The notes below the pieces were generated by a model. That model had not been told where the DNA came from. It did no database searches and saw nothing but the letters and a program-made list of their open reading frames with translations. Below, in pieces: positions 1-52,219 of a DNA stretch of 57,811 bases. The stretch comes from Escherichia phage vB_EcoS_AVIO78A. Position 1 is the stretch's first letter. Every line of letters starts with the position of its first letter. The DNA lies in sequence record MZ726797.1; one strand, given 5' to 3'. The position numbers were made by a program, and so were the translations under genes.

Positions 1-260
1 TATAGAAAGATAGAGATAGTGCATATAGTGTATTAACTGTAAATAGAGCTAAAATAAAAGTCTGGGAGATACCTATTGTAATCTATGTTTTTATGCAAGT
101 CTTTGAAATCATTGTGATTATGGGTTACGTATTTATGTATGTGATCGAAAATTAGTGCATGTTGTGCATTAACTGTAAACTTAATACTAACATTGTATTA
201 GCTGTAAAACAGGGCGTGTGGACAACCCGTGGGTATCTGTGGGAAACTAATTTAAAATTT
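1..260. repeat. AT-rich non-coding region with iterated motifs (GTRYATTARCTGTAAA x3; TGCATGTTGTGC); continues the repeat region at the window end; candidate pac/origin/early-promoter region
   Basis: direct reading of repeated motifs; no ORF with RBS. Confidence 0.55.
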
Positions 261-275
261 ATGGGAGACAAATTT

Positions 276-911
276 ATGAAAATTTCAGACCGGGCTAAAA
301 GGGCTGCTCTGGAGTTGTCGCCGGAACAGCTCAAATTCGCCAACCTGTGGTTAGATCGTGTCAATAACGGCTTCAGCAATACGCGATGCGTTTTAGAGGC
401 TTATCCGGGTCACACGTCTGATGCAGCGGCTGCAACGACCGCACACCGCCTCCTGTCGAATACAAAGGTGTTGAACTATCTGGACGCGATGGGAAGTCAT
501 GCGCTTGAATCTGTCGGGGAATCGTTAACGAGTCGTGTCGAGTGGTGGAAGCGCGCGGCAAGCACGGCTGAAGAATTACTGGAACCATACTGCCAACGCG
601 TCATCGTTCCTGGTGAAGACGACACGGAAGCGAAACACTTGTGGGTGAACAGTACCGACGATATCCCCAGTCATCTTCAACAGTACGTAGTTTGCTACAA
701 GCGTTACATGCTGGGTGGATACATTCTGGTGACGCGTGAACTGTTCGACCCGAAAACTCGTGCAAAAGCGTCTGAGCAACTGGATAAAATCACCGGGAAC
801 AGTATCGACCGTGTGGAACTGTCTGGTGTGGTTGGTAACGTGGTTCAGAGTGTTCCTGAAGGTGCAACTATCGACGACATCGCACAACTGTATCAGAAGG
901 CGCTTAAATAG
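276..911 (+). CDS. terminase small subunit (putative)
   Basis: ORF 159..911 trimmed to ATG 276 preceded by GGGAGA; N-terminal region resembles TerS DNA-binding domains; immediately upstream region is iteron-rich. Confidence 0.55.
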   Translation: MKISDRAKRAALELSPEQLKFANLWLDRVNNGFSNTRCVLEAYPGHTSDAAAATTAHRLLSNTKVLNYLDAMGSHALESVGESLTSRVEWWKRAASTAEELLEPYCQRVIVPGEDDTEAKHLWVNSTDDIPSHLQQYVVCYKRYMLGGYILVTRELFDPKTRAKASEQLDKITGNSIDRVELSGVVGNVVQSVPEGATIDDIAQLYQKALK

Positions 912-1242
912 GCGGTTGTTCCGGCTTAAATCGTGCCGGAAACCGTTTGCGTTTTCGATAAACAGGGTTGAGTGGTGCAAGTGTACTGATAAGGGTATTA
1001 AGCTCGTCAGAGAGCGTTTTAGGTGTGGGAAGATTTGTATTAATGAAACTTTTCGCGTCATCAAGAGTTCTAAAGAAGCCATAATTTTTGTGGTTCATTG
1101 TCACGTTGTATGGGTAATCACAGTTAAAACTTAAAGTCATAAAATAGATCCTGCCAATTTCTTTACCATTCTCAAAAATCGCAAGGTCTTTCGTAAGCAG
1201 TGAACCTGTTCCTAAAGCATATGCTGGTTCAAAAGTTTTCAT
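904..1242 (-). CDS. hypothetical protein
   Basis: ORF track; ATGA overlap with upstream small gene; C-terminus overlaps TerS end. Confidence 0.4.
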   Translation of the reverse strand: MKTFEPAYALGTGSLLTKDLAIFENGKEIGRIYFMTLSFNCDYPYNVTMNHKNYGFFRTLDDAKSFINTNLPTPKTLSDELNTLISTLAPLNPVYRKRKRFPARFKPEQPPI

Positions 1243-1391
1243 TTGAATTCATACTCCACAATACCAAATTCGTTAATAATTTGTGCTTTATAAAAACAAC
1301 CTTTCGATGCCAGTTTATAGGCTTGTTCCATAGTCATTTCACGATATTCAACCATTGAGTTTTCTGTTTCTAATATCATCAGTGTAACCAT
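1239..1391 (-). CDS. small hypothetical protein (~50 aa)
   Basis: ATG with GAGGAA RBS just downstream of promoter at 1450; stop overlaps next start (ATGA); below ORF-track size cutoff. Confidence 0.4.
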   Translation of the reverse strand: MVTLMILETENSMVEYREMTMEQAYKLASKGCFYKAQIINEFGIVEYEFK

Positions 1392-1426
1392 TTTCCTGTT
1401 CCTCACAATTCGTTGTCTATGTGAGT

Positions 1427-1470
1427 AATTTACACGTCCTTGTGTAATCCGTCAAGAATTATTTTAAATA
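1427..1470 (-). promoter_or_regulatory. conserved sigma70-like promoter (UP element AAAATAATTC, -35 TTGACG, 17 bp spacer, -10 TAAATT)
   Basis: member of 14-copy motif family; correct distance upstream of a minus-strand gene. Confidence 0.6.
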
Positions 1471-1491
1471 AAACCCCGGAACTAACCGGGG
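1461..1491 (-). terminator. intrinsic terminator (minus strand)
   Basis: hairpin CCCCGG-AACTAA-CCGGGG followed by T-rich tract on minus strand, directly after stop of 1501..1836. Confidence 0.5.
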
Positions 1492-1500
1492 AAATGTTCA

Positions 1501-1836
1501 TTATTCGCCCAACGCTTCTTTCAACAACCGATACGTTTCAGGACATTTGCCGGATCCGCGTTCACGTTCATAAGCTGCACTAATAGCGTCCCAGTTTTCA
1601 ATCACCCCTTTAAACGCCGGACACTTTTCAGCAATCAATGGAAAACTGTTTCTGATTTCTGGCACAGCTTCAACCAGGAACCAACAACGACGGAAATCGG
1701 CAACATCCCGTGGTGCATGAAATCCCCAATCACCACCCATTTCATTACCTGTGTGAATACACACCATCGTTTTAGAACTCAGTCCCGTTTCACCAGAACA
1801 TAACCACTGAATAATACGTTCCTGTTCTGTTTTCAT
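1501..1836 (-). CDS. hypothetical protein
   Basis: ORF track; stop/start overlap with rdgC-like gene. Confidence 0.5.
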
Positions 1837-2747
1837 CGTTTAGCTTCCCCACCCAAAGCAGTGATAAGTTGTTTGATCAGCGCTGAAAGTTCACCTGTCA
1901 TTAGTACAAAATCAGCGTCAAATCGTGCCAGAACATCTTCAAGGTCAATATCGTCATTCTGTCCGATCAGTTCATCACAGAACTTCACACGGTTTAATGT
2001 CATGCTGTCAGTTAGCGTAAACGTTACCCGCTGCTGCCAGTCCAGAGCCAGCTTTGTAACGACTTTCCCTGCTTCAATATGTGTGGCTATTTCATCACTG
2101 GTTAAATCCTGTTTTTTAACGCGTGCAACACCACCATCAGCCAGGATCGCTTTCAGTTCAGCAGCGTCACCCATTGTGAAACCTGTTGGCGCGTTTCCTG
2201 AACGTACCCACTCCGTTGTTGTCAGTTCAACAGGGTTTTCAGTTGTCAGTGGGACTACAGGCAGACTACCCAGGGATTTACGTAACAGCGCTAACGCATC
2301 TTCAGCCCGTTTAGCACTGGGCGCATCAACCACAATCAACCCGTTAGTGATGTCGATCCACAACTGTGTACGACTGTTTTTAACGAACGCCCGTGGTAAC
2401 AGACTGTGCAACACTTCATCTTTCAGCGCGTCTTTCTCTGTTTTCTTCAGCTTACGCGCCTGTTCAGCTTCCAGTTTGGCGATTCGCGCGTTCAGATGCT
2501 GTTTAATGACCGGACCCGGAATAATCTTTTCCTGTTTCTGGATGGTCAGCAGATATTGCCCGTTAGCCTGGTGAACCAGTGTCCGATGTTGTTCAGTTGC
2601 CGGAACCCATCCAGTACGCGCCATATCCTGTGAACCACATGGATTGAATTGAAACGCACACAAGCTGTCTTCCAGCGTTGGCAACTGGGCCATTAATTGC
2701 ATCGGGTTAGTCAGACGATAAATGATTGCATTTTTAAAGAAGTTCAT
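1833..2747 (-). CDS. rdgC: recombination-associated protein RdgC homolog
   Basis: near full-length similarity to enterobacterial RdgC, e.g. [55 protein letters not shown]. Confidence 0.85.
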
Positions 2748-2941
2748 AGTTCAATGTCCTGTGGTTTGATAGTAACTTTTCCGTCAAGAACAACAGTGTT
2801 TACACCACTTAGTTTTTGTTCTTCGTATAAATCAAGTTCAACATTAATTCCGACGATTGAGGCTTCGTGTATCGCACAGTTTAACTGTTTAATGAGGTCT
2901 GAAATTCTACGCTGATAATCTTGTGCTTCTGATAGTTTCAT
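2744..2941 (-). CDS. hypothetical protein
   Basis: ORF track; overlapping stop/start with neighbours. Confidence 0.45.
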
Positions 2942-3135
2942 ACACCACCTTCATTTTTAATATATTCAGCAACTAAATCTTTGACTTCTACAATTTTAAC
3001 AGCACCGTTATAATCAACCTGAATATGACAGTGACCATAACGCGCCGCTGTTAACCTGGCGTCGTTCAGTATTTTTAAATCTTTCAATACTTGTTCAATT
3101 GCTTGTTGTTTAATCACAGATTCGTGCACAGTCAT
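2938..3135 (-). CDS. hypothetical protein
   Basis: ORF track; ATGA overlap with upstream small gene. Confidence 0.45.
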   Translation of the reverse strand: MTVHESVIKQQAIEQVLKDLKILNDARLTAARYGHCHIQVDYNGAVKIVEVKDLVAEYIKNEGGV

Positions 3136-3287
3136 TTCCGGTTCCTTCTTTTCTTCGCCTCACGTCGGGCTTTTGCAATACCTGTTTTACGATGTGGTTG
3201 TTTACGATCAGTAATAATTCCTTGTGGTGGAACGCCCCACAAAGCGTTAGCGGAACCTAATAATTTAATCGCGTAATCAAGAATCAT
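3132..3287 (-). CDS. small basic hypothetical protein (~51 aa)
   Basis: ATG start, ATGA overlaps at both ends; lysine/arginine-rich C-terminus. Confidence 0.35.
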   Translation of the reverse strand: MILDYAIKLLGSANALWGVPPQGIITDRKQPHRKTGIAKARREAKKRRNRK

Positions 3288-3550
3288 ACGTTCACCACTT
3301 TTAAATCAGGTGAAAGGCTACGATGGTCGTGATGACCGTTCGTAGTAAATGAGAAAGTGTAATCGCATTGTTCACCATCGAACGTGAAGGGGATTTGAAA
3401 CCCTGTATCGTCAGTGATGCGAACTTTAACCGGGTATTCAGCTTGCGGATCGACTGCTACAACAGTGCCGAACGGTTTAGATTTGCGACGTGCGAGAATT
3501 TCTAACAGTCGTGGACTGGTGATTTCCACGTGTTGACCAGTTTTAAACAT
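3284..3550 (-). CDS. hypothetical protein
   Basis: ORF 3284..3577 trimmed to ATG 3550 (GGAG RBS, downstream of promoter -10). Confidence 0.5.
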   Translation of the reverse strand: MFKTGQHVEITSPRLLEILARRKSKPFGTVVAVDPQAEYPVKVRITDDTGFQIPFTFDGEQCDYTFSFTTNGHHDHRSLSPDLKVVNV

Positions 3551-3582
3551 GGTGATAACTCCAGTTGTTTTACACAAACTGA

Positions 3583-3626
3583 AGTCTATCTGATAATGTG
3601 TAAACCGTCAAGAATTATTTTAAACT
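3583..3626 (-). promoter_or_regulatory. conserved promoter (-35 TTGACG, -10 TAGACT); lies inside the 3-prime end of upstream ORF
   Basis: motif family member. Confidence 0.55.
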
Positions 3627-3792
3627 GTCCATCACTGTCTGCAGCGTAACAAATACCGTGATTGTAGATTGTCGCAGTTCGTGTAATGCGTTGATAGTCT
3701 GAGCATTGGTTACGAACACGCAGGTCATACCCGGATTGTATGATTAGCCAGGTTGCAATAATGGCGAGTAATTTTAAAACGTATCTGAACAT
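3586..3792 (-). CDS. hypothetical protein with hydrophobic N-terminus (possible signal/TM)
   Basis: ORF track trimmed to ATG 3792. Confidence 0.4.
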   Translation of the reverse strand: MFRYVLKLLAIIATWLIIQSGYDLRVRNQCSDYQRITRTATIYNHGICYAADSDGQFKIILDGLHIIR

Positions 3793-3863
3793 GTTCCGCA
3801 CTCCTGTTTGATAGTTTCAGGGTAGTGCGGAACTGGCGAAGATGGTATAGGATTTACGATAAT

Positions 3864-4259
3864 TTAACAGAGGTTTCGGCTGGCGTAAAACTTTGTACCG
3901 ACTGGCATACGTTCCATGTTGAGTTTTCCACGCAGGTATTTGTATGTTTCACCGGGAGAACGTAGTTCTGCGTCACACGGTCTTTCAACAATTTCACCCA
4001 CGGGATCACCTAACGCGCCTTTCCATCCTTCCCACATTGCAGTCATAGTGATAAACCAGACACTACCTAAACTGGCTTTCTTATTCTCCCAGAACCAGTC
4101 GATGAACTCTATCGACATCCCATGCTGTTTTGCAATTTCGTAACGGTCATCCACGCTTTCAACCCTCCACCCATGTTTAGCACGATTCATAGCGGTCCGT
4201 TCATCATTCGTGGTGAACAGTACGCGCCCGGATTTATGACAAATGTTCCAAGTCGTCAT
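3864..4259 (-). CDS. hypothetical protein
   Basis: ORF track. Confidence 0.5.
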   Translation of the reverse strand: MTTWNICHKSGRVLFTTNDERTAMNRAKHGWRVESVDDRYEIAKQHGMSIEFIDWFWENKKASLGSVWFITMTAMWEGWKGALGDPVGEIVERPCDAELRSPGETYKYLRGKLNMERMPVGTKFYASRNLC

Positions 4260-4311
4260 TTCGCTAATACACCAATAATGAAAATTAGCATGTAGAATAA
4301 AACATTACGGG

Positions 4312-4470
4312 TCATAATTCATAAACCTTAAAACTACCGCCTGAATAGCGATGTTTATTACACAACTTACAACGGTGTTCCTGAGTGGCGTAATTACGTT
4401 CATCACCGTGGGTAGTACGATATAAATACCATTCGTGTTTACAGAATAATCGTTTGAGAAATATCTTCAT
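4312..4470 (-). CDS. small Cys/His-containing protein (possible zinc ribbon, ~52 aa)
   Basis: ATG with strong GAGGAGGGG RBS; CxxH...CxxC spacing; below ORF-track cutoff. Confidence 0.45.
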   Translation of the reverse strand: MKIFLKRLFCKHEWYLYRTTHGDERNYATQEHRCKLCNKHRYSGGSFKVYEL

Positions 4471-4473
4471 AGT

Positions 4474-4668
4474 TCAATAACCCCTCCTCGACTGGTAATC
4501 AATTTTCTTCAGTGATTGTTGCACAATCTGCCAGGACGATAACATGAATAATTGCGCGTATTGCCCCAGTGCTAAATTTCGTGGTTTATCCTGATAAGCG
4601 TAAATCGTCGCAACATCATCAGCTTCCAGACGGATCCGCCACGGTGTCAGAGTTGGTTTATCGCCCAT
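4474..4668 (-). CDS. hypothetical protein
   Basis: ORF 4474..4704 (TTG) trimmed to ATG 4668; overlaps upstream stop. Confidence 0.45.
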   Translation of the reverse strand: MGDKPTLTPWRIRLEADDVATIYAYQDKPRNLALGQYAQLFMLSSWQIVQQSLKKIDYQSRRGY

Positions 4669-4993
4669 GTTCGATGCTCTCCAGTAGTTCACGAATGTTT
4701 TCAATTACACGTTGTTTTGTCTGAGTAGTGACACACACCCCATCAGTGCGACCGAACGTATTCAGGACCGTTTGAAGCATGTAAGTCATAAGTTCAGTAT
4801 TATAAAGTTTTACGAATATTGAAAGATCGCCACCAATTTCAACAGTGTCTACATCATCTTCAAAATATGAAAATGTAGTGTCTTTAAAATGAACACAGTA
4901 AACGGCATTTTGCCCGTATTCAGGTTGTGCATTACGTTCAAGACGAACGGTAAGAACTTCTTTAAATAATCCGTTGTGGTCTTTAATTTTCAT
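4658..4993 (-). CDS. hypothetical protein
   Basis: ORF 4658..5038 trimmed to ATG 4993 with AGGAG RBS. Confidence 0.5.
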   Translation of the reverse strand: MKIKDHNGLFKEVLTVRLERNAQPEYGQNAVYCVHFKDTTFSYFEDDVDTVEIGGDLSIFVKLYNTELMTYMLQTVLNTFGRTDGVCVTTQTKQRVIENIRELLESIEHGR

Positions 4994-5025
4994 ACCTGTG
5001 TTACTCCTGTTCAATTGATGATCAG

Positions 5026-5069
5026 AGTCTGACACCACCTCTGTAATCTGTCAAGAATTATTTTAAACC
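5026..5069 (-). promoter_or_regulatory. conserved promoter (-35 TTGACA, weak -10)
   Basis: motif family member upstream of the 4993 gene. Confidence 0.5.
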
Positions 5070-5130: not shown

Positions 5131-6894
5131 ATGAATAAGTTTACTGGAAATATTCATAATTACCCGCGTTGGCGGGATGCTTACGCAAACGACGAACGTA
5201 TCTGGCGAAAAGGTCAGCCACGCCCGGATTACAAACAGTGTTACATTGACCGTATTAACCTGTTAAATCGTATGCGCACGGATCGGGCAATTGTCCCGGT
5301 ACTGAAAAAGTATTACGAAACAAACCCGGTAGCGTTTATCCTCGACTGGGCGTTTACTTACGACCCGCGTAACGTCGGTACTGAATATCCACCCAACATG
5401 CCTTTCTGCCTTTTTGAACGTCAAATCGACATGGTTCAGTTTGTTTACGAAGCGCTTGAAGATAAAGAGAAAGGGCTTTGGGAAAAATCGCGAGATTACG
5501 GTGCAACCTGGGTAGCCTGTGGCTTGTCCGTGTGGGCGTGGCTGTATCGTCCTGGTTCTTCAGTTGGCTGGGGATCACGTAAAGAACAGCTTGTTGATAA
5601 ACTGGGCGACCCGGATAGTATTTTTGAAAAGATTCGCCAGATTATTCGCGCATTACCACCAGAATTACGCCCTGTTGGTCTGCGTGAAAAAGACCATCTG
5701 GTTTATATGAAATGTATCAACCCTGAAAACGGTGCGACAATTACTGGTGAAGCTGGTGACAACATTGGTCGTGGTGGTCGTAAATCTGTTTACTTTCTCG
5801 ACGAAGCGGCACACGTAGATCGTCCTGAACTGATCGAAGCGTCGTTGTCAGCTAACACCAACGTCCGTATTGATATCAGTTCGGTTAATGGCGTTGGTAA
5901 CGTTTTTTATCGTAATCGTAAAGCTGGTCTGGAGTGGGAACCGGGCAAAAAATTACCTCGTGGTAAATTGCGTGTTATGGTTCTGGACTGGCGCGATCAC
6001 CCAGCTAAAGATGACGAATGGTATAAGCGAGAAAAACAATCTTTCGCTGAAAAAGGTTTACAGCATATTTTCGCACAGGAAGTTGACCGCGATTATGCCG
6101 CTGCTGTTCAGGGCGTGTTGATTAAAGCTGAATGGGTACGCGCTGCTTTTGATGCTTTCCGTGACACAGAATGGCGCAAAGCTAATGGACTACTTACACC
6201 AACAGGTCAACGTATCGCCGGACAGGACGCAGCAGACGGTGGTGAAGATGCCAGTGCGCTGGTAATTGCTCACGGTGTATTCCTGACACATCTGCAACTT
6301 GACCACAGGGGCGCTGAACTGGCTGCACCAGGAATGTTGACTATGGCTAATATGCTGGGTGTTGATGAATACTGGTACGAAGTTAACGGTGTTGGTACAG
6401 GCGTTAAAGTAGCGGCAAATGACCGAAAAGATACTTTACGCTTCCGTGTGCGTCCGTGGTTACCGAATGGAAAAGTTGTGGATCCGGGCGGTGATATTAT
6501 CGGTGGTACGAAACCTGGCGATAAAGACCGTAAATCAAACAAAGATTATTTCTCAAATTATAAAGCACAGGCATCGTGGGCGTTACGCTTGCGTTGTCAG
6601 CGAATTTATAAATGGTATGTGGAAGGTCAACCACAGGATCCAGACGAAATCATTCTGATTGATCCATCACTGGAAAATGCACAACGGTTAGAAGCTGAGT
6701 TAAGTCAGCCAACGTATACAAGTAACGGTGCCGGGAAGATTGTGATCGACAAAAAACCAAATGGAAGTAAGTCGCCAAACTTTTTCGATGCTGCGGTTAT
6801 TGCACTATCACCAAAACGTACCGAATTCGTTGAAGAACCGTTTACTGGCGGTGTGAATCCTGTTGGTACTCCTGAATATGGTGACATTTTTTAA
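5131..6894 (+). CDS. terminase large subunit
   Basis: 587 aa following TerS-like gene; ATPase-like segment KSRDYGATW and acidic FLDEAAH motif; followed by terminator. Confidence 0.75.
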   Translation: MNKFTGNIHNYPRWRDAYANDERIWRKGQPRPDYKQCYIDRINLLNRMRTDRAIVPVLKKYYETNPVAFILDWAFTYDPRNVGTEYPPNMPFCLFERQIDMVQFVYEALEDKEKGLWEKSRDYGATWVACGLSVWAWLYRPGSSVGWGSRKEQLVDKLGDPDSIFEKIRQIIRALPPELRPVGLREKDHLVYMKCINPENGATITGEAGDNIGRGGRKSVYFLDEAAHVDRPELIEASLSANTNVRIDISSVNGVGNVFYRNRKAGLEWEPGKKLPRGKLRVMVLDWRDHPAKDDEWYKREKQSFAEKGLQHIFAQEVDRDYAAAVQGVLIKAEWVRAAFDAFRDTEWRKANGLLTPTGQRIAGQDAADGGEDASALVIAHGVFLTHLQLDHRGAELAAPGMLTMANMLGVDEYWYEVNGVGTGVKVAANDRKDTLRFRVRPWLPNGKVVDPGGDIIGGTKPGDKDRKSNKDYFSNYKAQASWALRLRCQRIYKWYVEGQPQDPDEIILIDPSLENAQRLEAELSQPTYTSNGAGKIVIDKKPNGSKSPNFFDAAVIALSPKRTEFVEEPFTGGVNPVGTPEYGDIF

Positions 6895-18645: not shown

Positions 18646-18689
18646 AAGATACACCACCGCTTGTAATCCGTCAAGAATTATTTTAAAGA
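18646..18689 (-). promoter_or_regulatory. conserved promoter (-35 TTGACG, -10 TATCTT)
   Basis: motif family member. Confidence 0.6.
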
Positions 18690-18960
18690 TACAGTTAATA
18701 CAGAACGTGTACTAACTGTACATGGTTTTACATAGGTTTCATGATTTTGAGTTGCAGCTAATACAGAACGTGTATTAGTAGATCATAGATTCATAGATCA
18801 CGTCATGTTTATTTTTTAACCGATCCTTCTCTATCTTATTCTTTTTATTATCTTTTTATAGATAACATAGAAAACATAAATAAATAGAAGAGTAGTATAA
18901 GTAGTAAAAGTTGCTGCAAGTAGGAGAGGTTTAAAAGGTATAGAGAGTCGCATACTTCCC
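18690..18960. repeat. non-coding AT-rich region with direct repeats (TAATACAGAACGTGTAYTA x2) and a ~95 bp element also present at 57715..57811
   Basis: direct comparison of 18801..18905 with 57715..57811. Confidence 0.6.
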
Positions 18961-18969
18961 ATGAATCTA

Positions 18970-19013
18970 TACGTAAAATAATTCTTGACGGATTACATCG
19001 ACACAACTACCCT
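18970..19013 (+). promoter_or_regulatory. conserved promoter, rightward (-35 TTGACG, -10 TACCCT)
   Basis: motif family member upstream of head gene block. Confidence 0.55.
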
Positions 19014-26768: not shown

Positions 26769-26812
26769 AAGATACCTTAACAGGTGCAATTCGTCAAGAA
26801 TTATTTTAAATC
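26769..26812 (-). promoter_or_regulatory. conserved promoter (-35 TTGACG, -10 TATCTT)
   Basis: motif family member. Confidence 0.55.
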
Positions 26813-39918: not shown

Positions 39919-41775
39919 TTACCGAAGTGGTGCAACGAGTTTTTCAGCTTCTTTGATGTAAAAATCATAATTTAGCGTTGCCCGGTTAAAACGTTTCATG
40001 TCGTTGCACTCCGTGGTCAACCAACCTTTGCACACTGACATACGGCGCTCAGGCGCGTCAGGGTTCAGTTTCAGTGATTTTGCCAGTGGTGGCATGACTT
40101 TTGTCAACGGTGCACCATCTGTACTGACGTAATAACGGGTAATGTTCTGAACCTGTTTATCACCCCATAATAACTTGCTGTTACGCGGTACTTTCGTCAC
40201 CAACATAAAATCGTGAATGTCTTCGTGTGATGTTATAAAATCACGAATGTCTTTATTGTGTACCAGTGCTGCTTCAGCAGCTTTTGCGACAACCTGCATA
40301 CTGTGGTTTTGATGCCAACCCAGATCAACACTGTGACAATAAGCGCCTTTACGTTTAACCTTCTTACCACCTTCGTAAACAGCGATATAATTATTTACAT
40401 CGCGAATAAACATCACGTCATAAATCGCTTCTTCAAGCTGGAGTCTGGTTAATTTTTCCCACGCGTGACGAACCTGTTCTACTTGTTCGGTAAACACTCG
40501 TGGCACGTAAACCGTAAGACCATCTGTGTTAGCCTGGATCATGGACAAACCAGGGATTTTCAGAAGTTCTTCAGCCAACATACACAAAAGTAATTGTCCG
40601 TTAATCGTAATAGCCATTGTATAAGCAGGATCGTAGAACGGGCTGTATACGTTATTACTGTCACCATACACACCGTTTAACGCTAGTTTTAACATTGCAT
40701 TTTCTGGTGTACCTTTCGGGTAACTGGAACGCATGTCATAAACATTTTTATAAATGGTGCAAAATTGTTTACCCAGATGTGCTGGATAAAGTTCATTACT
40801 GATCGCAAGGTTCGGGTAAAAACTGGCAACGTCCAGATCGATGATCACATAATTTTCAGTGGACCTGATAGTTTGAGACTCAATAGACCCGTGGATACCA
40901 CCCGTACCAAAATCAAACGAGAACCCGTTAATGTCTGCGCTTAAATCCGTGAATACACCTTTTGTTTCAGTGATGACCTGTTGGCGTAACCAGTTAAGAA
41001 CACGATTAAATTCAGGCTGTTCAAAACGGACATAAGGGAAAATCACACTGTTCAATGCGATTGACGGTCTGTGCGTCTGTCGTGGTTTTCTACTACCCGG
41101 TTCGAAACATTGAATACCTGATTTTTCAAGTTCCATAATGAAATAGTCTTTACCGATTTTCGTGTCATTATGGTTCATGAAATTACGACCGTATTTAGCA
41201 GAAAGTTCACGACGAAAATCTATCAGCTTTTTACTGTGTTTATAAAACATCAAAGTCGCTTTTAAATCGTGTATCAGATATTGACGAAGCGTATCAATTT
41301 GAGAATCGGTTAAATAAGTCCCTGGCGTAAATGGGAGGTCTTCAATGTTTTCCATTCTCATGTTGAATTCAAGTGTTTTCAGACTTGTTCGTTTTGCCTG
41401 ATTGTCGAAATGATGAATTTTATATAAATCAAGCTGGGGAACTATCCAGTCTTTTTCCCACACCATATGAGCAAAACGATTTTCATCACCAGCGTTAATT
41501 ATCGAATCACCTTTTTTATAAATGTCTGCGTTGGTGATATACATGATATTGTTCAAAATAGAATGCTGAACAGGATAGTCGTAACCCAGATTGTTATAAC
41601 CAACTTCTTCATCACGATGTTCACGTAAATATTCTGTGAACAGGTAAAAAGCCTGACGATCATCGCGACGATGTGAAATCTCAAAAATATAAGGTGTTTC
41701 AGTTAACGCGTGAATAGCACCGAACAGAAAAACATTAGGATAGTTTTCAATATCGTGAACGTAAGCATCTGACAT
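39919..41775 (-). CDS. DNA polymerase (compact, family-B-like motifs)
   Basis: DLDVASFYPN (motif A-like), KLALNGVYGDS (motif B-like), ANTDGL (motif C-like), N-terminal DxE and YxxxD exonuclease-like motifs. Confidence 0.55.
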   Translation of the reverse strand: MSDAYVHDIENYPNVFLFGAIHALTETPYIFEISHRRDDRQAFYLFTEYLREHRDEEVGYNNLGYDYPVQHSILNNIMYITNADIYKKGDSIINAGDENRFAHMVWEKDWIVPQLDLYKIHHFDNQAKRTSLKTLEFNMRMENIEDLPFTPGTYLTDSQIDTLRQYLIHDLKATLMFYKHSKKLIDFRRELSAKYGRNFMNHNDTKIGKDYFIMELEKSGIQCFEPGSRKPRQTHRPSIALNSVIFPYVRFEQPEFNRVLNWLRQQVITETKGVFTDLSADINGFSFDFGTGGIHGSIESQTIRSTENYVIIDLDVASFYPNLAISNELYPAHLGKQFCTIYKNVYDMRSSYPKGTPENAMLKLALNGVYGDSNNVYSPFYDPAYTMAITINGQLLLCMLAEELLKIPGLSMIQANTDGLTVYVPRVFTEQVEQVRHAWEKLTRLQLEEAIYDVMFIRDVNNYIAVYEGGKKVKRKGAYCHSVDLGWHQNHSMQVVAKAAEAALVHNKDIRDFITSHEDIHDFMLVTKVPRNSKLLWGDKQVQNITRYYVSTDGAPLTKVMPPLAKSLKLNPDAPERRMSVCKGWLTTECNDMKRFNRATLNYDFYIKEAEKLVAPLR

Positions 41776-41855: not shown

Positions 41856-42887
41856 TCAGTAACCGTTACCGTTGAGAAAATTCGGGGCCGGGGTGGTCAT
41901 TACCATATAACCGTTAGCGATCAGTTGTTCATCGTTCCAACCTTGCGCAATAAACTGTTCGTAAGTTGCACCACCTGCTTTTTCAGTCATTACTTTTACA
42001 GGTGCTGCCGCTGGTGTAGGCGTTGCTACAGGTGCTGCCGCTGGTGTAGGCGTTGCTACAGGTGCTGCCGCTGGTGTAGGCGTTGCTACAGGTGCTGCCG
42101 CTGGTGTAGGCGCTGCTACAGGTGCTGCCGCTGGTGTAGGCGTTGCTACAGGTGCTGCCGCTGGTGTAGGCGTTGCTACAGGTGCTGCCGCTGGTGTAGG
42201 CGTTGCTACAGGTGCTGCCGCTGGTGTAGGCGCTGCTACAGGTGCTGCCGCTGGTGTAGGCGCTGCTACAGGTGCTGCCGCTGGTGTTACGCCGATCGGA
42301 CGTGCACCTTCAGGCATTGCAGGAGCAGCACCGAACACAGATGCAGGAGCCGGACCAGAAATGATTTCTTCACCCGCATAAAGCAATTGCGCCATTTCCA
42401 TGTTGATATATACGCCAGCCTGATTACCTGTACGACCGTTTGCAACAGATGATCCGCTGATACGGTAGTAATAACCTTTTTTCGCCAGATTTTTATCAAT
42501 AACTGGCTGGTACGCTGCGTTATAAACCGGACACGCATCAATAGCCACGTTGCGTGAGAAACCAATTACCCAGTGACCAGCATAACCAGTTTTACTCGCA
42601 TGTTTCGGATCGTCACCGTTAATAATTTTCCATGCGAAAGTGGGTTGTTGTGGTTCGCCGTTCACATAGTGTGAGTTAGCCACTCGCATAATCGCCTGGA
42701 ATACCGCACCCAGTTCACCTTGTTCTTCCCACCAGTTCGCCGCTGTTTTAGGAAACGCCAGGCCAACCCACCAGTTGTGTTTTTCAGGTGCTAACGGTTT
42801 ATTTTCGTGGTCATGAGTGTTGATATCGAAAAAAGAACCGCCAACCAGACGACCAACCGGAGTTACAAAAGATTCTTTCTGTGCCAT
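41856..42887 (-). CDS. ssDNA-binding protein-like (DUF2815-like N-domain) with Pro/Ala repeat linker and conserved C-terminal motif
   Basis: VGRL...FPK pattern; PAAAPVA[TA]PT x ~9.5; C-terminal TYEQFIAQGWNDEQL. Confidence 0.5.
   Translation of the reverse strand: MAQKESFVTPVGRLVGGSFFDINTHDHENKPLAPEKHNWWVGLAFPKTAANWWEEQGELGAVFQAIMRVANSHYVNGEPQQPTFAWKIINGDDPKHASKTGYAGHWVIGFSRNVAIDACPVYNAAYQPVIDKNLAKKGYYYRISGSSVANGRTGNQAGVYINMEMAQLLYAGEEIISGPAPASVFGAAPAMPEGARPIGVTPAAAPVAAPTPAAAPVAAPTPAAAPVATPTPAAAPVATPTPAAAPVATPTPAAAPVAAPTPAAAPVATPTPAAAPVATPTPAAAPVATPTPAAAPVKVMTEKAGGATYEQFIAQGWNDEQLIANGYMVMTTPAPNFLNGNGY
41996..42288. repeat. tandem 30-bp repeat (~9.5 copies) encoding the Pro/Ala linker
   Basis: GGTGCTGCCGCTGGTGTAGGCG[T/C]TGCTACA repeated contiguously. 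Confidence 0.9.
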
Positions 42888-42902
42888 GTTATTAACCTTC
42901 TT

Positions 42903-44048
42903 TTAAAGTGGACGTGCGCCAGTCGGCATCGTCACGGGTTTGTTAAAAACAGATTCTGCCAGTGTGCTGTGACCTTTACGCGGGTCACTGTCAGGTACTA
43001 AAACTGGCTGACCTTCTGGTTTTGTCGTACACATGTCAACAAGTGCCGGAGGCAGTGATTTTTCCAGTGTTGACAACGGTTTTAATTTACGTTCGTACAA
43101 TGTTTCAGGGTTTACACCAAACATGGGTGCAGCACCGATCAGTTTTCCTTCGTCCGTAAGCTGACGTCGGGTTTGCTTTGTTGCAAGTTTAAAACCCGGT
43201 AAAGCCTTACCCATGCGAACAAAATGTAACCCCTGAGTATGTAACGCTGTTTTTGCTTCAGAAGAACGCGTATACAGTTCTTCAAGAAGTGCCAGACGAC
43301 GCGCTACTTCTTCTGGCGTAAGTGATGGTGGTGCATCAAGAACAGTAGCCAATTCTAAAACCCTCTCATACATCGCCGGACACATACCACGCGCCGGACA
43401 GTAATGACAATGACTACCAACATTTAACGGTGCGTCTGGTTTATGTGCTTCGTTAAACCCGTGTTTAAATCGTTCAGCCCATTCCATCAATGTTGTCCGG
43501 TTAAACTCCCACCGTCTTACAAGTCCGAGTGGGTGATAAGCCCGTGGCTGAACAATTGTGAACACAACGCGCTTAACAGTATCAATACAACGTTGGTCCA
43601 GTGCGTAATAGACCCCCTGTGAATTATCAACTGCTTCAACTGCGATATGACCGTATTTATAATCCCATACGTAAAGCGTATCAGTATTAAAATCATACCA
43701 GCGATAATCACAGGTTCCGTACTGACCGGGTAACAACCAGTCAATGTGAATGCGAACTTCTGAAAACAGCGGATCAAGTTTCGCACCAACTGAAAGAACA
43801 TCTGCTATAAAGTCATCCGCGTAAATATGCATGTCTTCAGTAACCTGAACACCGTTAGGAGCAAGACACGGCATTAATGGCGGTTTGCCTTTAATCTTCT
43901 GTTCTAACACCCAGTGCCCGGCTGTACCTTCTTCAGCACTGGGTGATGATGGTTCTACATAGTCAATCCGCTGTGACAGTTGAACGCTACCCGGACAAGC
44001 TAACCAACGTTTTGATCCACTGGCACTAAAGGTAGCGTGACTGGTCAT
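42903..44048 (-). CDS. PD-(D/E)XK-type nuclease (DUF2800/Cas4-like, putative)
   Basis: N-terminal SASGSKRWLACPGS pattern; C-terminal Cys cluster; adjacent to SSB-like gene. Confidence 0.5.
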   Translation of the reverse strand: MTSHATFSASGSKRWLACPGSVQLSQRIDYVEPSSPSAEEGTAGHWVLEQKIKGKPPLMPCLAPNGVQVTEDMHIYADDFIADVLSVGAKLDPLFSEVRIHIDWLLPGQYGTCDYRWYDFNTDTLYVWDYKYGHIAVEAVDNSQGVYYALDQRCIDTVKRVVFTIVQPRAYHPLGLVRRWEFNRTTLMEWAERFKHGFNEAHKPDAPLNVGSHCHYCPARGMCPAMYERVLELATVLDAPPSLTPEEVARRLALLEELYTRSSEAKTALHTQGLHFVRMGKALPGFKLATKQTRRQLTDEGKLIGAAPMFGVNPETLYERKLKPLSTLEKSLPPALVDMCTTKPEGQPVLVPDSDPRKGHSTLAESVFNKPVTMPTGARPL

Positions 44049-44832: not shown

Positions 44833-44876
44833 ACTTTAAAAGGTGTTGTGCAATCTGTCAAGAATTATTTTACACT
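44833..44876 (-). promoter_or_regulatory. conserved promoter (-35 TTGACA, -10 TAAAGT), proximal of tandem pair
   Basis: motif family member. Confidence 0.6.
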
Positions 44877-44894: not shown

Positions 44895-44939
44895 ATGTTA
44901 GAGGAATAAGTTGCAATGCGTCAAGAACTATTTTAAACT
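44895..44939 (-). promoter_or_regulatory. conserved promoter (-35 TTGACG, -10 TAACAT), distal of tandem pair
   Basis: motif family member. Confidence 0.55.
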
Positions 44940-50210: not shown

Positions 50211-50255
50211 TGTGTAAAATAATTCTTGACGAATTACAGATGTGTACGCTATAGT
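50211..50255 (+). promoter_or_regulatory. conserved promoter, rightward (-35 TTGACG, -10 TATAGT)
   Basis: motif family member; followed by AAGGAG RBS and ATG 50287. Confidence 0.6.
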
Positions 50256-51767: not shown

Positions 51768-52182
51768 TAGTTTCAGTGGTGAATATCGTTGGTTAAGTAA
51801 TTTTTGGCCTGTACCTGTCAACTATGATGGGTACGTTTTTAAAACGGTGGAACATGCTTATCAAGCGCTGAAATGTAAATATTATAATGACTTTCTGGAG
51901 GTTAAAAACTGTGACACACCCGGTCAGGCTAAACGTCTTGCACGTCAAAAAATCATGCGTGACGACTGGGAACAAATTAAAACTCAGGTGATGTTTTATC
52001 TTCTGCAGCAGAAATTTTCTAACCCTAAAATGTGGGCTTTACTCGTTGCCACAGGTGATCAACCAATCGTTGAAGGTAACGAGTGGGGTGATACATTCTG
52101 GGGTGTTTGCAGTGGTAAAGGTGAAAATCATTTAGGTAAAATGATAATGGCTATTCGCGCCGGATATCAAACTTACCTTTAA
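51760..52182 (+). CDS. NADAR-domain protein (YbiA-like)
   Basis: WLSNFW near N-terminus, EHAYQALK, FWGVC - pattern typical of NADAR/DUF1768. Confidence 0.55.
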   Translation: MVDSFSGEYRWLSNFWPVPVNYDGYVFKTVEHAYQALKCKYYNDFLEVKNCDTPGQAKRLARQKIMRDDWEQIKTQVMFYLLQQKFSNPKMWALLVATGDQPIVEGNEWGDTFWGVCSGKGENHLGKMIMAIRAGYQTYL

Positions 52183-52219
52183 AATAGTTCTTGACAGATT
52201 ACCAACCCTCCCCGATAAT
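52176..52219 (+). promoter_or_regulatory. conserved promoter, rightward (-35 TTGACA, 17 bp, -10 GATAAT)
   Basis: best sigma70 match of the family. Confidence 0.65.

What the first reader, a model, noticed from the sequence alone, without database searches (positions are those of the whole stretch)
1833..2747. Host-like RdgC in a phage accessory cassette
Seen in sequence: long stretches identical or near-identical to enterobacterial RdgC. Established knowledge: RdgC is a DNA-binding ring protein that modulates RecA-mediated recombination. Inference: acquired from the host and used to tune recombination or replication restart during infection.
Basis: partly seen in the sequence, partly recalled or inferred. 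Interest (0 to 1): 0.5.

Follow-up and report, generated by a model that had tools for sequence, protein, structure and literature searches.

The report
Phage-lineage RdgC gene, already annotated
The gene is a real, intact copy of the bacterial DNA-ring protein RdgC carried by a 9NA-like virulent phage, but it was not recently taken from the host, it is already annotated in sister phages, and its role in infection is still untested.

Summary
Window 1833..2747 (minus strand) is a 304-aa ORF that matches Pfam RdgC over its full length (E 9e-115). It is 66.6% identical to E. coli K-12 RdgC, with four identical runs of 14-18 residues. All ten residues shown by mutagenesis to be needed in E. coli RdgC are conserved, the predicted fold matches 2OWL (TM 0.84), and dN/dS is about 0.1.

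The window is a whole 9NA-like (Nonanavirus/Sashavirus) siphovirus genome, 95% identical to phage PJ16. The gene lies in a leftward variable cassette between terS and terL. It is the fifth gene of a six-gene operon joined by ATGA overlaps, running from a repeated sigma-70-type promoter motif to a terminator.

"Acquired from the host" is only loosely right. No chromosomal RdgC exceeds 67% identity, while E. coli and Salmonella share 93%. Synonymous sites are saturated and GC3 has drifted towards the phage value. The 9NA-like copies form one clade (200/200 bootstraps) whose divergence tracks TerL. Its nearest branches are all phage- or prophage-borne, though with weak support.

Most likely function, by inference only: a DNA-encircling clamp that keeps host RecA off phage DNA. 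The phage has its own exonuclease and annealase. Homologues are already annotated (SP069, Sergei, P1 hrdC). Interest is low.

The parts
1833..2747 (-). rdgC homologue, 304 aa
   Evidence: Full-length match to Pfam PF04381 at E 9e-115, to PDB 2owl at E 3e-128 and to phrog_724 at E 3e-128. All 10 functional residues are conserved. AlphaFold model has pLDDT 80 and TM 0.84 to 2owl.
1501..1836 (-). orf111, last gene of the operon. It overlaps the rdgC stop by ATGA. Function unknown (phrog_1229).
   Evidence: Coordinates and overlap read. phrog_1229 at E 6e-40. Homologues are in lambdoid, PY54, Mu-like and Vibrio phages and are not obligately next to rdgC. It is adjacent to rdgC in Klebsiella phage BU9 too.
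1474..1491 (-). Intrinsic-terminator-like hairpin CCCCGG-loop-CCGGGG followed by TTTTATTT, 10 nt after the orf111 stop
   Evidence: Terminator scan; sequence read.
3600..3621 (-). Promoter motif AAAATAATTCTTGACGGTTTAC (-35 TTGACG, 17 nt, TAGACT). Proposed start of the rdgC transcription unit.
   Evidence: One of 13 copies of the motif, 0 expected by chance. -10-like hexamers are listed. A GGAG RBS and ATG at 3550 follow.
2744..3550 (-). Four small upstream ORFs of the same unit (3550..3284, 3287..3132, 3135..2938, 2941..2744). Each is joined to the next by a 4-nt ATGA overlap. All are of unknown function.
   Evidence: Coordinates and overlaps read. There are only weak or no PHROG or Pfam matches.
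5043..5064 (-). Copy of the same promoter motif at the head of the whole leftward cassette, in the divergent terL-upstream spacer
   Evidence: The motif core is conserved at this place in 9NA, Sasha and Klebsiella phage BU9; PJ16 differs there.
1444..1465 (-). Third copy of the promoter motif, just downstream of the terminator. It would drive the last two cassette ORFs (1406..1239, 1242..904).
904..5038 (-). Variable leftward accessory cassette (about 13 ORFs) between terS and terL
   Evidence: Content differs between relatives.
159..911 (+). Small terminase subunit, the conserved left flank. The annotated start in relatives is the internal ATG.
   Evidence: phrog_51; relatives' annotation.
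5131..6894 (+). Large terminase subunit, the conserved right flank
   Evidence: 100% identical to PJ16 and PDP46 TerL.
41856..44048 (-). Context: the phage's own exonuclease (42903..44048) and Gp2.5-like ssDNA-binding/annealing protein (41856..42887), upstream of the DNA polymerase gene (39919..41775). The operon is headed by the same promoter motif (44913-44934 and 44850-44871).

Best explanation
The gene encodes a functional phage version of RdgC. [quoted passage not shown] The basic finger domain loads the ring onto DNA, where it clamps tightly and without sequence specificity around duplex DNA.

The gene is transcribed by host RNA polymerase from a strong sigma-70-type promoter family. That family also heads the phage's exonuclease / Gp2.5-like annealase / DNA polymerase operon. 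The protein would therefore accumulate while phage DNA replicates.

Its most likely job is to raise RdgC dosage on phage DNA. That would prevent host RecA, loaded by RecFOR or RecBCD, from extending filaments or completing strand exchange on phage replication intermediates. Gaps and ends would then be handled by the phage's own RecA-independent exonuclease and annealase, and RecA*-dependent outputs such as SOS would be damped.

Shown here: identity, intactness, purifying selection, operon anatomy, phylogenetic position. Inferred: ring formation, DNA binding, timing of expression, RecA antagonism during infection.

The gene is an old resident of the 9NA-like phage lineage. It is dispensable and has been lost repeatedly. 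It is not a recent host capture.
For: Identity.

Functional residues from Briggs et al. 2010 (PMC2965237). The fingertip residues R97, K98, K100 and K101, the gate residues R118 and F120, and the horseshoe residues Q212, E218, H222 and K227 are all present in the window protein. Each is kept in 96-121 of 121 clade members.

Fold: the predicted structure matches 2owl and 2owy with TM 0.83-0.84.

Selection: dN/dS is 0.10-0.13 within the phage clade.

Operon: promoter motif at 3621..3600, five ATGA overlaps and a terminator at 1491..1474. The same motif sits upstream of the exonuclease/annealase/polymerase operon. No RecA-like recombinase was seen among the annotated or scanned genes of the close relative Bas82 or the window.

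Lineage: 15 of 19 distinct 9NA-like phages keep an intact copy. RdgC identity tracks TerL identity: 100/96.7, 96/87, 92/82 and 87/79%. Clade support is 200/200.
Against: No experiment on any phage RdgC was found in the searchable library. P1 hrdC is non-essential for lytic growth by CRISPRi (PMC10695390).

The gene is absent from 9NA, Sasha and 536P12 and is truncated in Carvaje, so any benefit is conditional.

Expression timing is inferred from a promoter motif only. Promoter-like consensus hits in this region are no more frequent than in shuffles (13 found against 11.6 expected). The support comes from the 22-nt motif, not from the generic scan.

The host already makes RdgC, so a dosage argument is not compelling by itself. 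Eleven clade-specific fixed substitutions could signal a changed function.
Confidence: 0.5

Rival explanations
1. Replication helper rather than RecA antagonist. The ring stabilises duplex DNA at phage forks, ends or concatemer junctions, or assists restart of phage replication, whatever RecA is doing.
For: In lambdoid phages and prophages, RdgC sits directly after the CII-O-P/DnaC replication genes. E. coli rdgC interacts genetically with priA and priB replication restart (PMC2965237; PMC11077077). Here it shares a promoter family with the replication genes.
Against: In E. coli the restart phenotype is itself explained through RecFOR/RecA, so this is not cleanly separable from the main explanation. 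In this phage the gene is not next to the replication module (about 37 kb away).
Confidence: 0.2
2. Conflict function: a RexA-like exclusion factor, or a counter-defence factor acting on host immunity or on competing phages, rather than a recombination modulator.
Against: The protein is a close, full-length RdgC with every DNA-loading and ring-interface residue intact, not a RexA-like divergent form. No PADLOC model matches it or its neighbours. This phage group has no recognisable lysogeny module in the annotation of Bas82. Bas82, which carries the gene, is not notably resistant to the tested defence systems (PMC11990801).
Confidence: 0.12
3. One reading: a recent capture of the current host's rdgC.
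For: Long identical peptide runs and an overall Enterobacterales-type sequence.
Against: Identity to every chromosomal copy found is 67% or less, against 84-93% among Enterobacteriaceae. Synonymous sites are saturated. GC3 has moved towards the phage value. There is no mak/ppnP synteny. The clade is shared by Escherichia, Salmonella and Klebsiella phages and parallels TerL. The gene lies inside the Enterobacteriaceae clade in only 7 of 200 bootstraps.
Confidence: 0.03
4. It is an exonuclease, as many GenBank, PHROG and Pfam labels say.
For: Labels only: Pfam 'Putative exonuclease, RdgC', phrog_724 'exonuclease recombination-associated' and several phage records.
Against: The papers read here describe RdgC as a non-specific DNA-binding ring that inhibits RecA, with no catalytic site discussed. 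From my own recollection, not checked here because the paper is not held, Moore et al. 2003 found no nuclease activity. The label is historical.
Confidence: 0.02
5. A decaying passenger gene with no function in the phage.
For: Lost in 9NA, Sasha and 536P12, and truncated in Carvaje.
Against: dN/dS is about 0.1 over dS up to 1.1-1.5. The frame is intact in 121 clade members from about 55-60 kb phage contigs. All functional residues are kept.
Confidence: 0.03

Closest known systems
E. coli RdgC (PDB 2OWL; Pfam PF04381)
   Same: Same length (304 against 303 aa) and 66.6% identity. Full-length profile match and same predicted fold (TM 0.84). Fingertip, gate and horseshoe residues are identical.
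   Different: Encoded by a virulent phage in a leftward accessory operon, not at the chromosomal ppnP-rdgC-mak locus. It scores below the cut-off of the Enterobacteriaceae equivalog model NF001460 (473 against 501 bits). It has 11 clade-specific fixed substitutions and a divergent N-terminus, MNFFKNAI against MLWFKNLM.
RdgC of sister 9NA-like phages (PJ16_006, Sergei, Solent, SP069 'RdgC exonuclease', Bas82, Klebsiella phages BU9, KP13-27 and VLCpiS10a)
   Same: Orthologues at 79-97% identity in the same terS-terL cassette, already annotated as RdgC or recombination-associated protein.
   Different: Only small differences in cassette content. For example, PJ16 has an extra 55-aa ORF between rdgC and the orf111 homologue.
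Phage P1 HrdC (homologue of RdgC) and RdgC of lambdoid phages and prophages
   Same: All are phage-borne RdgC-family proteins, 59-67% identical to the window protein. They are its nearest neighbours in the NJ tree.
   Different: They have different genomic settings: P1 has uhr-hrdC-dmt under C1 control, and lambdoids have O-P-RdgC or repressor-adjacent copies. They are temperate phages. Grouping with the 9NA clade has weak support (9-42%; all mobile copies monophyletic in 67 of 200 bootstraps).
Lambda RexA
   Same: Shares the RdgC-type centre and base domains and non-specific DNA binding, according to PMC11077077.

Membership tests
RdgC family (Pfam PF04381 / NCBIfam PRK00321) | Full-length significant match to the family profile | tested here: met
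   PF04381 at 383 bits against a cut-off of 25, covering profile positions 2-298 of 298. NF001462 at 415 bits against a cut-off of 330.
RdgC family (Pfam PF04381 / NCBIfam PRK00321) | RdgC fold (base, centre and tip/finger domains as in 2OWL and 2OWY) | tested here: met
   The AlphaFold2 model (mean pLDDT 80.4, pTM 0.76) hits 2owl and 2owy at E 4e-37 and 3e-30 with TM 0.83-0.84. Residues 204-230, the horseshoe helix, are low-confidence in the monomer model.
RdgC family (Pfam PF04381 / NCBIfam PRK00321) | Basic fingertip needed to load onto circular DNA (E. coli R97, K98, K100, K101) | tested here: met
   All four are identical in the window protein. They are kept in 119, 96, 120 and 121 of 121 clade members. 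Their role is from PMC2965237.
RdgC family (Pfam PF04381 / NCBIfam PRK00321) | Dimer-interface residues (gate R118, F120; horseshoe Q212, E218, H222, K227) | tested here: met
   All six are identical in 121 of 121 clade members. Their role is from PMC2965237.
RdgC family (Pfam PF04381 / NCBIfam PRK00321) | Toroidal dimer that encircles DNA; non-specific ds/ssDNA binding | not testable with these tools
   Only a monomer could be modelled. This is inferred from conserved interface residues.
RdgC family (Pfam PF04381 / NCBIfam PRK00321) | Inhibition of RecA strand exchange and LexA cleavage; rescue of the priA rdgC synthetic defect | not testable with these tools
   Needs biochemistry and genetics.
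Chromosomal rdgC orthologue of Enterobacteriaceae (the host gene itself) | Scores above the equivalog cut-off and groups with chromosomal copies | tested here: not met
   NF001460 at 473 bits, below the 501 cut-off. Identity to any chromosomal copy is 67% or less. Inside the Enterobacteriaceae clade in 7 of 200 bootstraps.
Chromosomal rdgC orthologue of Enterobacteriaceae (the host gene itself) | Conserved ppnP-rdgC-mak neighbourhood | tested here: not met
   Nearly all chromosomal MLWFKN-type loci carry mak and/or ppnP (E. coli map). The window gene is flanked by small phage ORFs.
Rex-like exclusion proteins (lambda RexA) | RexA-type sequence or a match to a defence-system model; RexB partner | tested here: not met
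   There is no PADLOC hit for RdgC or five other cassette ORFs, including orf111. The protein is a close RdgC rather than a divergent RexA-like form. Whether PADLOC holds a RexA model was not checked.

The most novel reading that the evidence does not exclude
Phage-borne RdgCs (9NA-like phages, P1 HrdC, the O-P-RdgC genes of lambdoid prophages) might form one old viral lineage. Its job would be counter-defence: coating phage DNA to stop RecA* signalling, which would block SOS, RecA-dependent abortive infection and induction of resident prophages.

Its repeated loss (9NA, Sasha, 536P12, truncation in Carvaje) would reflect hosts that sense it. In a preprint screen, over-expressed E. coli rdgC was among the triggers of the Salmonella retron-Sen2 toxin/antitoxin (10.1101/2020.06.22.160242). 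9NA, which lacks the gene, is recorded with S. Typhimurium LT2 as its host.

Because the ring-interface residues are identical to the host's, mixed phage/host RdgC rings are also possible.
Probability: 0.1. Interest if true: 0.6.

Novelty: already known. Interest (0 to 1): 0.17.

Why it matters
As a gene call it adds nothing. The same gene is annotated in PJ16 (96.7% identical), Sergei, Solent, SP069, Bas82 and others. Phage RdgC homologues occur in 508 of 50,697 phage records, including P1 hrdC.

Three points are worth keeping.
- The common database label 'exonuclease' is misleading.
- The gene is not a fresh host capture. It is a long-resident phage gene under purifying selection, whose nearest relatives are other phage or prophage copies.
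- No phage RdgC has been characterised experimentally in the literature I could search.

The natural presence/absence series within one phage genus offers an easy test of what a viral RecA modulator does during lytic infection: PJ16 and Bas82 carry the gene, Sasha and 536P12 lack it, and Carvaje has a truncation.

Tried and rejected
1. Is orf111 (1501..1836), which overlaps the rdgC stop, an obligate partner or the counterpart of the pyrophosphatase/Uhr gene next to RdgC in Xenorhabdus prophages and P1? There is no similarity. phrog_1229 homologues occur widely in lambdoid, Mu-like and Vibrio phages without adjacent rdgC. Rejected as a dedicated partner.

2. Pfam, PHROG and PADLOC scans of the cassette ORFs gave only unknown-function families or nothing.

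3. Literature searches for functional work on phage RdgC or HrdC found none. The 'HrdC' term mostly hit the unrelated HRDC helicase domain. Zeng et al. 2019 on 9NA-like phages and Moore et al. 2003 are not held.

4. The generic sigma-70 scan was uninformative (13 hits against 11.6 expected). The useful signal was the 22-nt repeated motif.

5. I tried to show that all mobile RdgC copies form one clade. The NJ topology says so, but bootstrap support is only 67 of 200, and long-branch attraction cannot be excluded. No maximum-likelihood program was available.

6. The antisense ORF 1861..2574 (+) has no family match and I treat it as spurious.

Full report
**What is there.** The window contains an ORF at exactly 1833..2747 on the minus strand, 304 aa with an ATG start.
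- It matches Pfam PF04381 (RdgC) end to end at E 9.3e-115.
- It matches the NCBIfam RdgC models and phrog_724.
- It matches the solved E. coli RdgC structure 2OWL at E 3e-128 and the P. aeruginosa structure 2OWY at E 9e-67.
- Amino-acid identity to E. coli K-12 RdgC is 66.6%.
- The two proteins share four identical runs of 14-18 residues.

The similarity is uneven. Identity is 80-84% across the finger and gate region (residues 76-125) and across residues 151-175. It is only 36-40% at residues 1-25 and 51-75. At the DNA level the match to E. coli rdgC is about 70% over 77% of the gene.

**What genome this is.** The first 8 kb are 95% identical to Escherichia phage vB_EcoS_PJ16. They are 83-95% identical to other 9NA-like siphoviruses classified as Nonanavirus or Sashavirus. 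TerL is 100% identical to that of PJ16 and PDP46. At 57.8 kb, the window is essentially a whole genome of this type. The close relative Bas82 and the window encode their own DNA polymerase, helicase, primase, two exonucleases and a Gp2.5-like ssDNA-binding/annealing protein. No RecA-like recombinase is annotated or was seen.

**Is the protein intact and functional?** Briggs et al. 2010 (PMC2965237) showed by mutagenesis that E. coli RdgC needs three sets of residues:
- the basic fingertip (R97, K98, K100, K101) to load onto circular DNA;
- the gate residues R118 and F120;
- the horseshoe residues Q212, E218, H222 and K227, which form the tight ring required for activity in vivo.

All ten are present in the window protein, and each is kept in 96 to 121 of 121 members of its clade. 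An AlphaFold2 model (mean pLDDT 80.4) superposes on 2OWL and 2OWY with TM 0.83-0.84. The only long low-confidence stretch is the horseshoe helix, which in the crystal is a dimer contact. Pairwise dN/dS within the phage clade is 0.10-0.13 at dS up to 1.1-1.5. This is a gene maintained by selection, not a decaying passenger.

**Anatomy of the locus.** rdgC lies in a leftward block of about 13 ORFs (904..5038). The block is inserted between the rightward terS (159..911) and terL (5131..6894) genes. The block is hypervariable. Phage 9NA has nine unrelated small ORFs there and Sasha has three, neither with rdgC. PJ16 and the Klebsiella phage BU9 carry rdgC.

A 22-nt motif, AAAATAATTCTTGACrGATTrC, occurs 13 times in the window against none expected.
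- Each copy carries a consensus -35 hexamer, an A/T-rich tract upstream and a TAnnnT hexamer 17-18 nt downstream. It looks like a family of host-RNA-polymerase promoters.
- Three copies point leftward in this cassette, at 5064..5043, 3621..3600 and 1465..1444.
- The core of the copy in the terL-upstream spacer is conserved in 9NA, Sasha and BU9.
- Downstream of the 3621..3600 copy come a GGAG ribosome-binding site and an ATG at 3550.
- Six ORFs follow, joined by five ATGA overlaps. rdgC is the fifth and the 111-aa ORF 1836..1501 is the last.
- A GC-rich hairpin with a T-run at 1491..1474 follows.

I read this as one translationally coupled operon. Two further motif copies (44934..44913 and 44871..44850) head the exonuclease / annealase / DNA polymerase operon. 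That suggests co-expression with replication genes, but this is inference only.

The other cassette ORFs belong to unknown-function PHROGs or to none. None of the six cassette proteins scanned, rdgC included, matches PADLOC. The ORF after rdgC (phrog_1229) is widespread in lambdoid, Mu-like and Vibrio phages without adjacent rdgC. It is unrelated to the pyrophosphatase-type genes that flank RdgC in P1 and in a Xenorhabdus prophage. I do not regard it as a dedicated partner.

**Where the gene came from.**
- A scan of one genome per bacterial species returned 80 loci. The best chromosomal match is 67%.
- In my alignment, chromosomal RdgCs are 84-93% identical within Enterobacteriaceae (E. coli and Salmonella share 93%). 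E. coli and Providencia still share 70%, yet the phage protein is only 59-67% identical to all of them.
- Synonymous differences from E. coli are saturated, with pS 0.74.
- GC3 is 0.446, against 0.586 for E. coli rdgC and 0.385 +/- 0.048 for the phage's long ORFs.
- More than 120 protein clusters at 81-96% identity exist in public data, many on 55-60 kb contigs.
- In the phage collection, 15 of 19 distinct 9NA-like phages carry an intact copy. RdgC identity falls in step with TerL identity: 100/96.7% for PJ16, 96/87% for Salmonella phages, and 92/82% and 87/79% for Klebsiella phages.
- The clade is recovered in 200 of 200 NJ bootstraps. It falls inside the Enterobacteriaceae chromosomal clade in only 7 of 200.

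The gene has therefore been inherited vertically in this phage lineage since before its Escherichia-, Salmonella- and Klebsiella-infecting branches split. It was then lost in 9NA, Sasha and 536P12, and reduced to its C-terminal 103 residues in Carvaje.

Relative to Pseudomonas, the whole group is clearly of Enterobacterales type, with 100% support. An ancient capture from some enterobacterium is therefore likely. The current host is not the donor.

**Nearest relatives.** Chromosomal copies start MLWFKN and sit next to mak and/or ppnP. Eleven bacterial loci lack that synteny.
- Seven have the phage-like N-terminus MNFFKNAI (Xenorhabdus, Proteus, Providencia alcalifaciens and a probably mis-binned MAG).
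- Four are 377-382-aa 'long' forms (Serratia, Pectobacterium, Brenneria).
- The three I examined lie in lambdoid prophages, directly after CII, O-like and P/DnaC-like genes.
- Sequenced temperate phages show the same O-P-RdgC or repressor-adjacent arrangements. The latter matches a remark by Casjens and colleagues (PMC12315714).

In the NJ tree the 20 leaves nearest the window protein are all phage- or prophage-borne. The deep nodes have only 9-42% support, however, and all mobile copies are monophyletic in just 67 of 200 replicates. A single viral RdgC lineage is therefore suggested, not shown. Attraction of fast-evolving branches is a live alternative.

**How it most likely works.** Published work reports several properties of E. 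coli RdgC:
- it is a ring dimer that clamps DNA non-specifically;
- it counters RecFOR-mediated RecA loading;
- translocating helicases and polymerases are proposed to displace it through the finger.

Every residue tied to these properties is conserved. The phage has its own RecA-independent exonuclease/annealase pair. The best-supported reading is that the phage raises RdgC dosage during replication. That would keep host RecA off its gapped and branched intermediates and damp RecA*-dependent responses. I put about 0.5 on this mechanism, and above 0.95 on the protein being a functional RdgC.

The rivals are:
- a RecA-independent role in replication or duplex stabilisation (0.2), which the replication-gene linkage in lambdoids favours;
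- a conflict role such as Rex-like exclusion or counter-defence (about 0.12). The RexA-RdgC structural kinship prompts this. The close RdgC sequence, the absence of PADLOC hits and the unremarkable defence sensitivity of Bas82 argue against it;
- recent host capture, exonuclease activity, and passenger status, which the data above effectively exclude.

**Known or new.** The gene is already annotated as RdgC or 'recombination-associated protein' in PJ16, Sergei, Solent, SP069, Bas82 and several Klebsiella phages. P1 hrdC has been recognised as an RdgC homologue in the P1 genome annotation and is non-essential by CRISPRi. RdgC homologues occur in 508 phage records. The finding is therefore already known as a gene.

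I found no functional study of a phage-encoded RdgC in the searchable literature, so the function remains open. The genus offers natural presence, absence and truncation variants for a simple test. Interest is low.

Noticed in passing
window 1444-1465, 3600-3621, 5043-5064, 11080-11101, 13303-13324, 14909-14930, 18663-18684, 18975-18996, 26786-26807, 44850-44871, 44913-44934, 50216-50237, 52181-52202: A 22-nt motif AAAATAATTCTTGACrGATTrC occurs 13 times (0 expected). Each copy has a TAnnnT hexamer 17-18 nt downstream. It looks like a genome-wide family of sigma-70-type promoters with a UP-like tract. Three copies lie in the terS-terL cassette and two head the exonuclease/annealase/polymerase operon. 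What the other eight drive was not checked.
   Followed up: partly
window 41937-42347: About 14 tandem copies of a 30-nt unit lie inside the Gp2.5-like ssDNA-binding/annealing gene (41856..42887, minus strand). Local GC is 0.526, the highest in the window. This implies a 10-aa repeat in the protein.
   Followed up: no
window 17-184, 57528-57706 and 56826-56930: Dispersed copies of TAGTGCATGTTGTGCATTA-like sequence lie at both window ends, just upstream of terS. A 21-nt tandem repeat (TACAGGTGGTTCCACTCGTGA, about 4.5 copies) lies nearby. These may be packaging or regulatory repeats (D4, D6, D8).
   Followed up: no
window 18792-18891 and 57707-57806: Two 100-nt A/T-rich copies are 91% identical and 39 kb apart (D7).
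   Followed up: no
L089 (Klebsiella phage Carvaje) 2680-3012: A 110-aa ORF annotated 'RdgC exonuclease' is only the C-terminal 103 residues of RdgC (87% identical to window residues 202-304). It lacks the finger and gate, so it is a deletion remnant.
   Followed up: yes
L022, L065, L077, L078 (Serratia, Pectobacterium, Brenneria); L071, L075 (Xenorhabdus, Proteus): Second, non-syntenic RdgC copies occur in bacterial genomes. The three loci examined (L071, L075, L078) lie in lambdoid prophages right after O and P/DnaC-like genes. Four copies are 377-382-aa 'long' forms with a C-terminal extension; in L078 the long form is followed by a DNA methyltransferase/PAPS-reductase-like gene. P1 has the comparable uhr-hrdC-dmt arrangement.
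   Followed up: partly
window 1501-1836: The 111-aa ORF after rdgC (phrog_1229, unknown function) has homologues in HK022, 434, Stx phages, PY54, SuMu and many Vibrio phages. Some Vibrio phages carry both it and an RdgC homologue, but about 17 kb apart.
   Followed up: partly
L086 (GenBank OR851377, 'Salmonella phage S.Kent 1-2-1', 1994 bp) and L067 (Ignatzschineria MAG contig): The 'phage' contig carries a chromosomal-type RdgC 93% identical to that of E. coli K-12, so it is probably host DNA. The Ignatzschineria MAG contig carries an RdgC that groups tightly with the Proteus cibi prophage copy (100% bootstrap), so it is possibly mis-binned.
   Followed up: no
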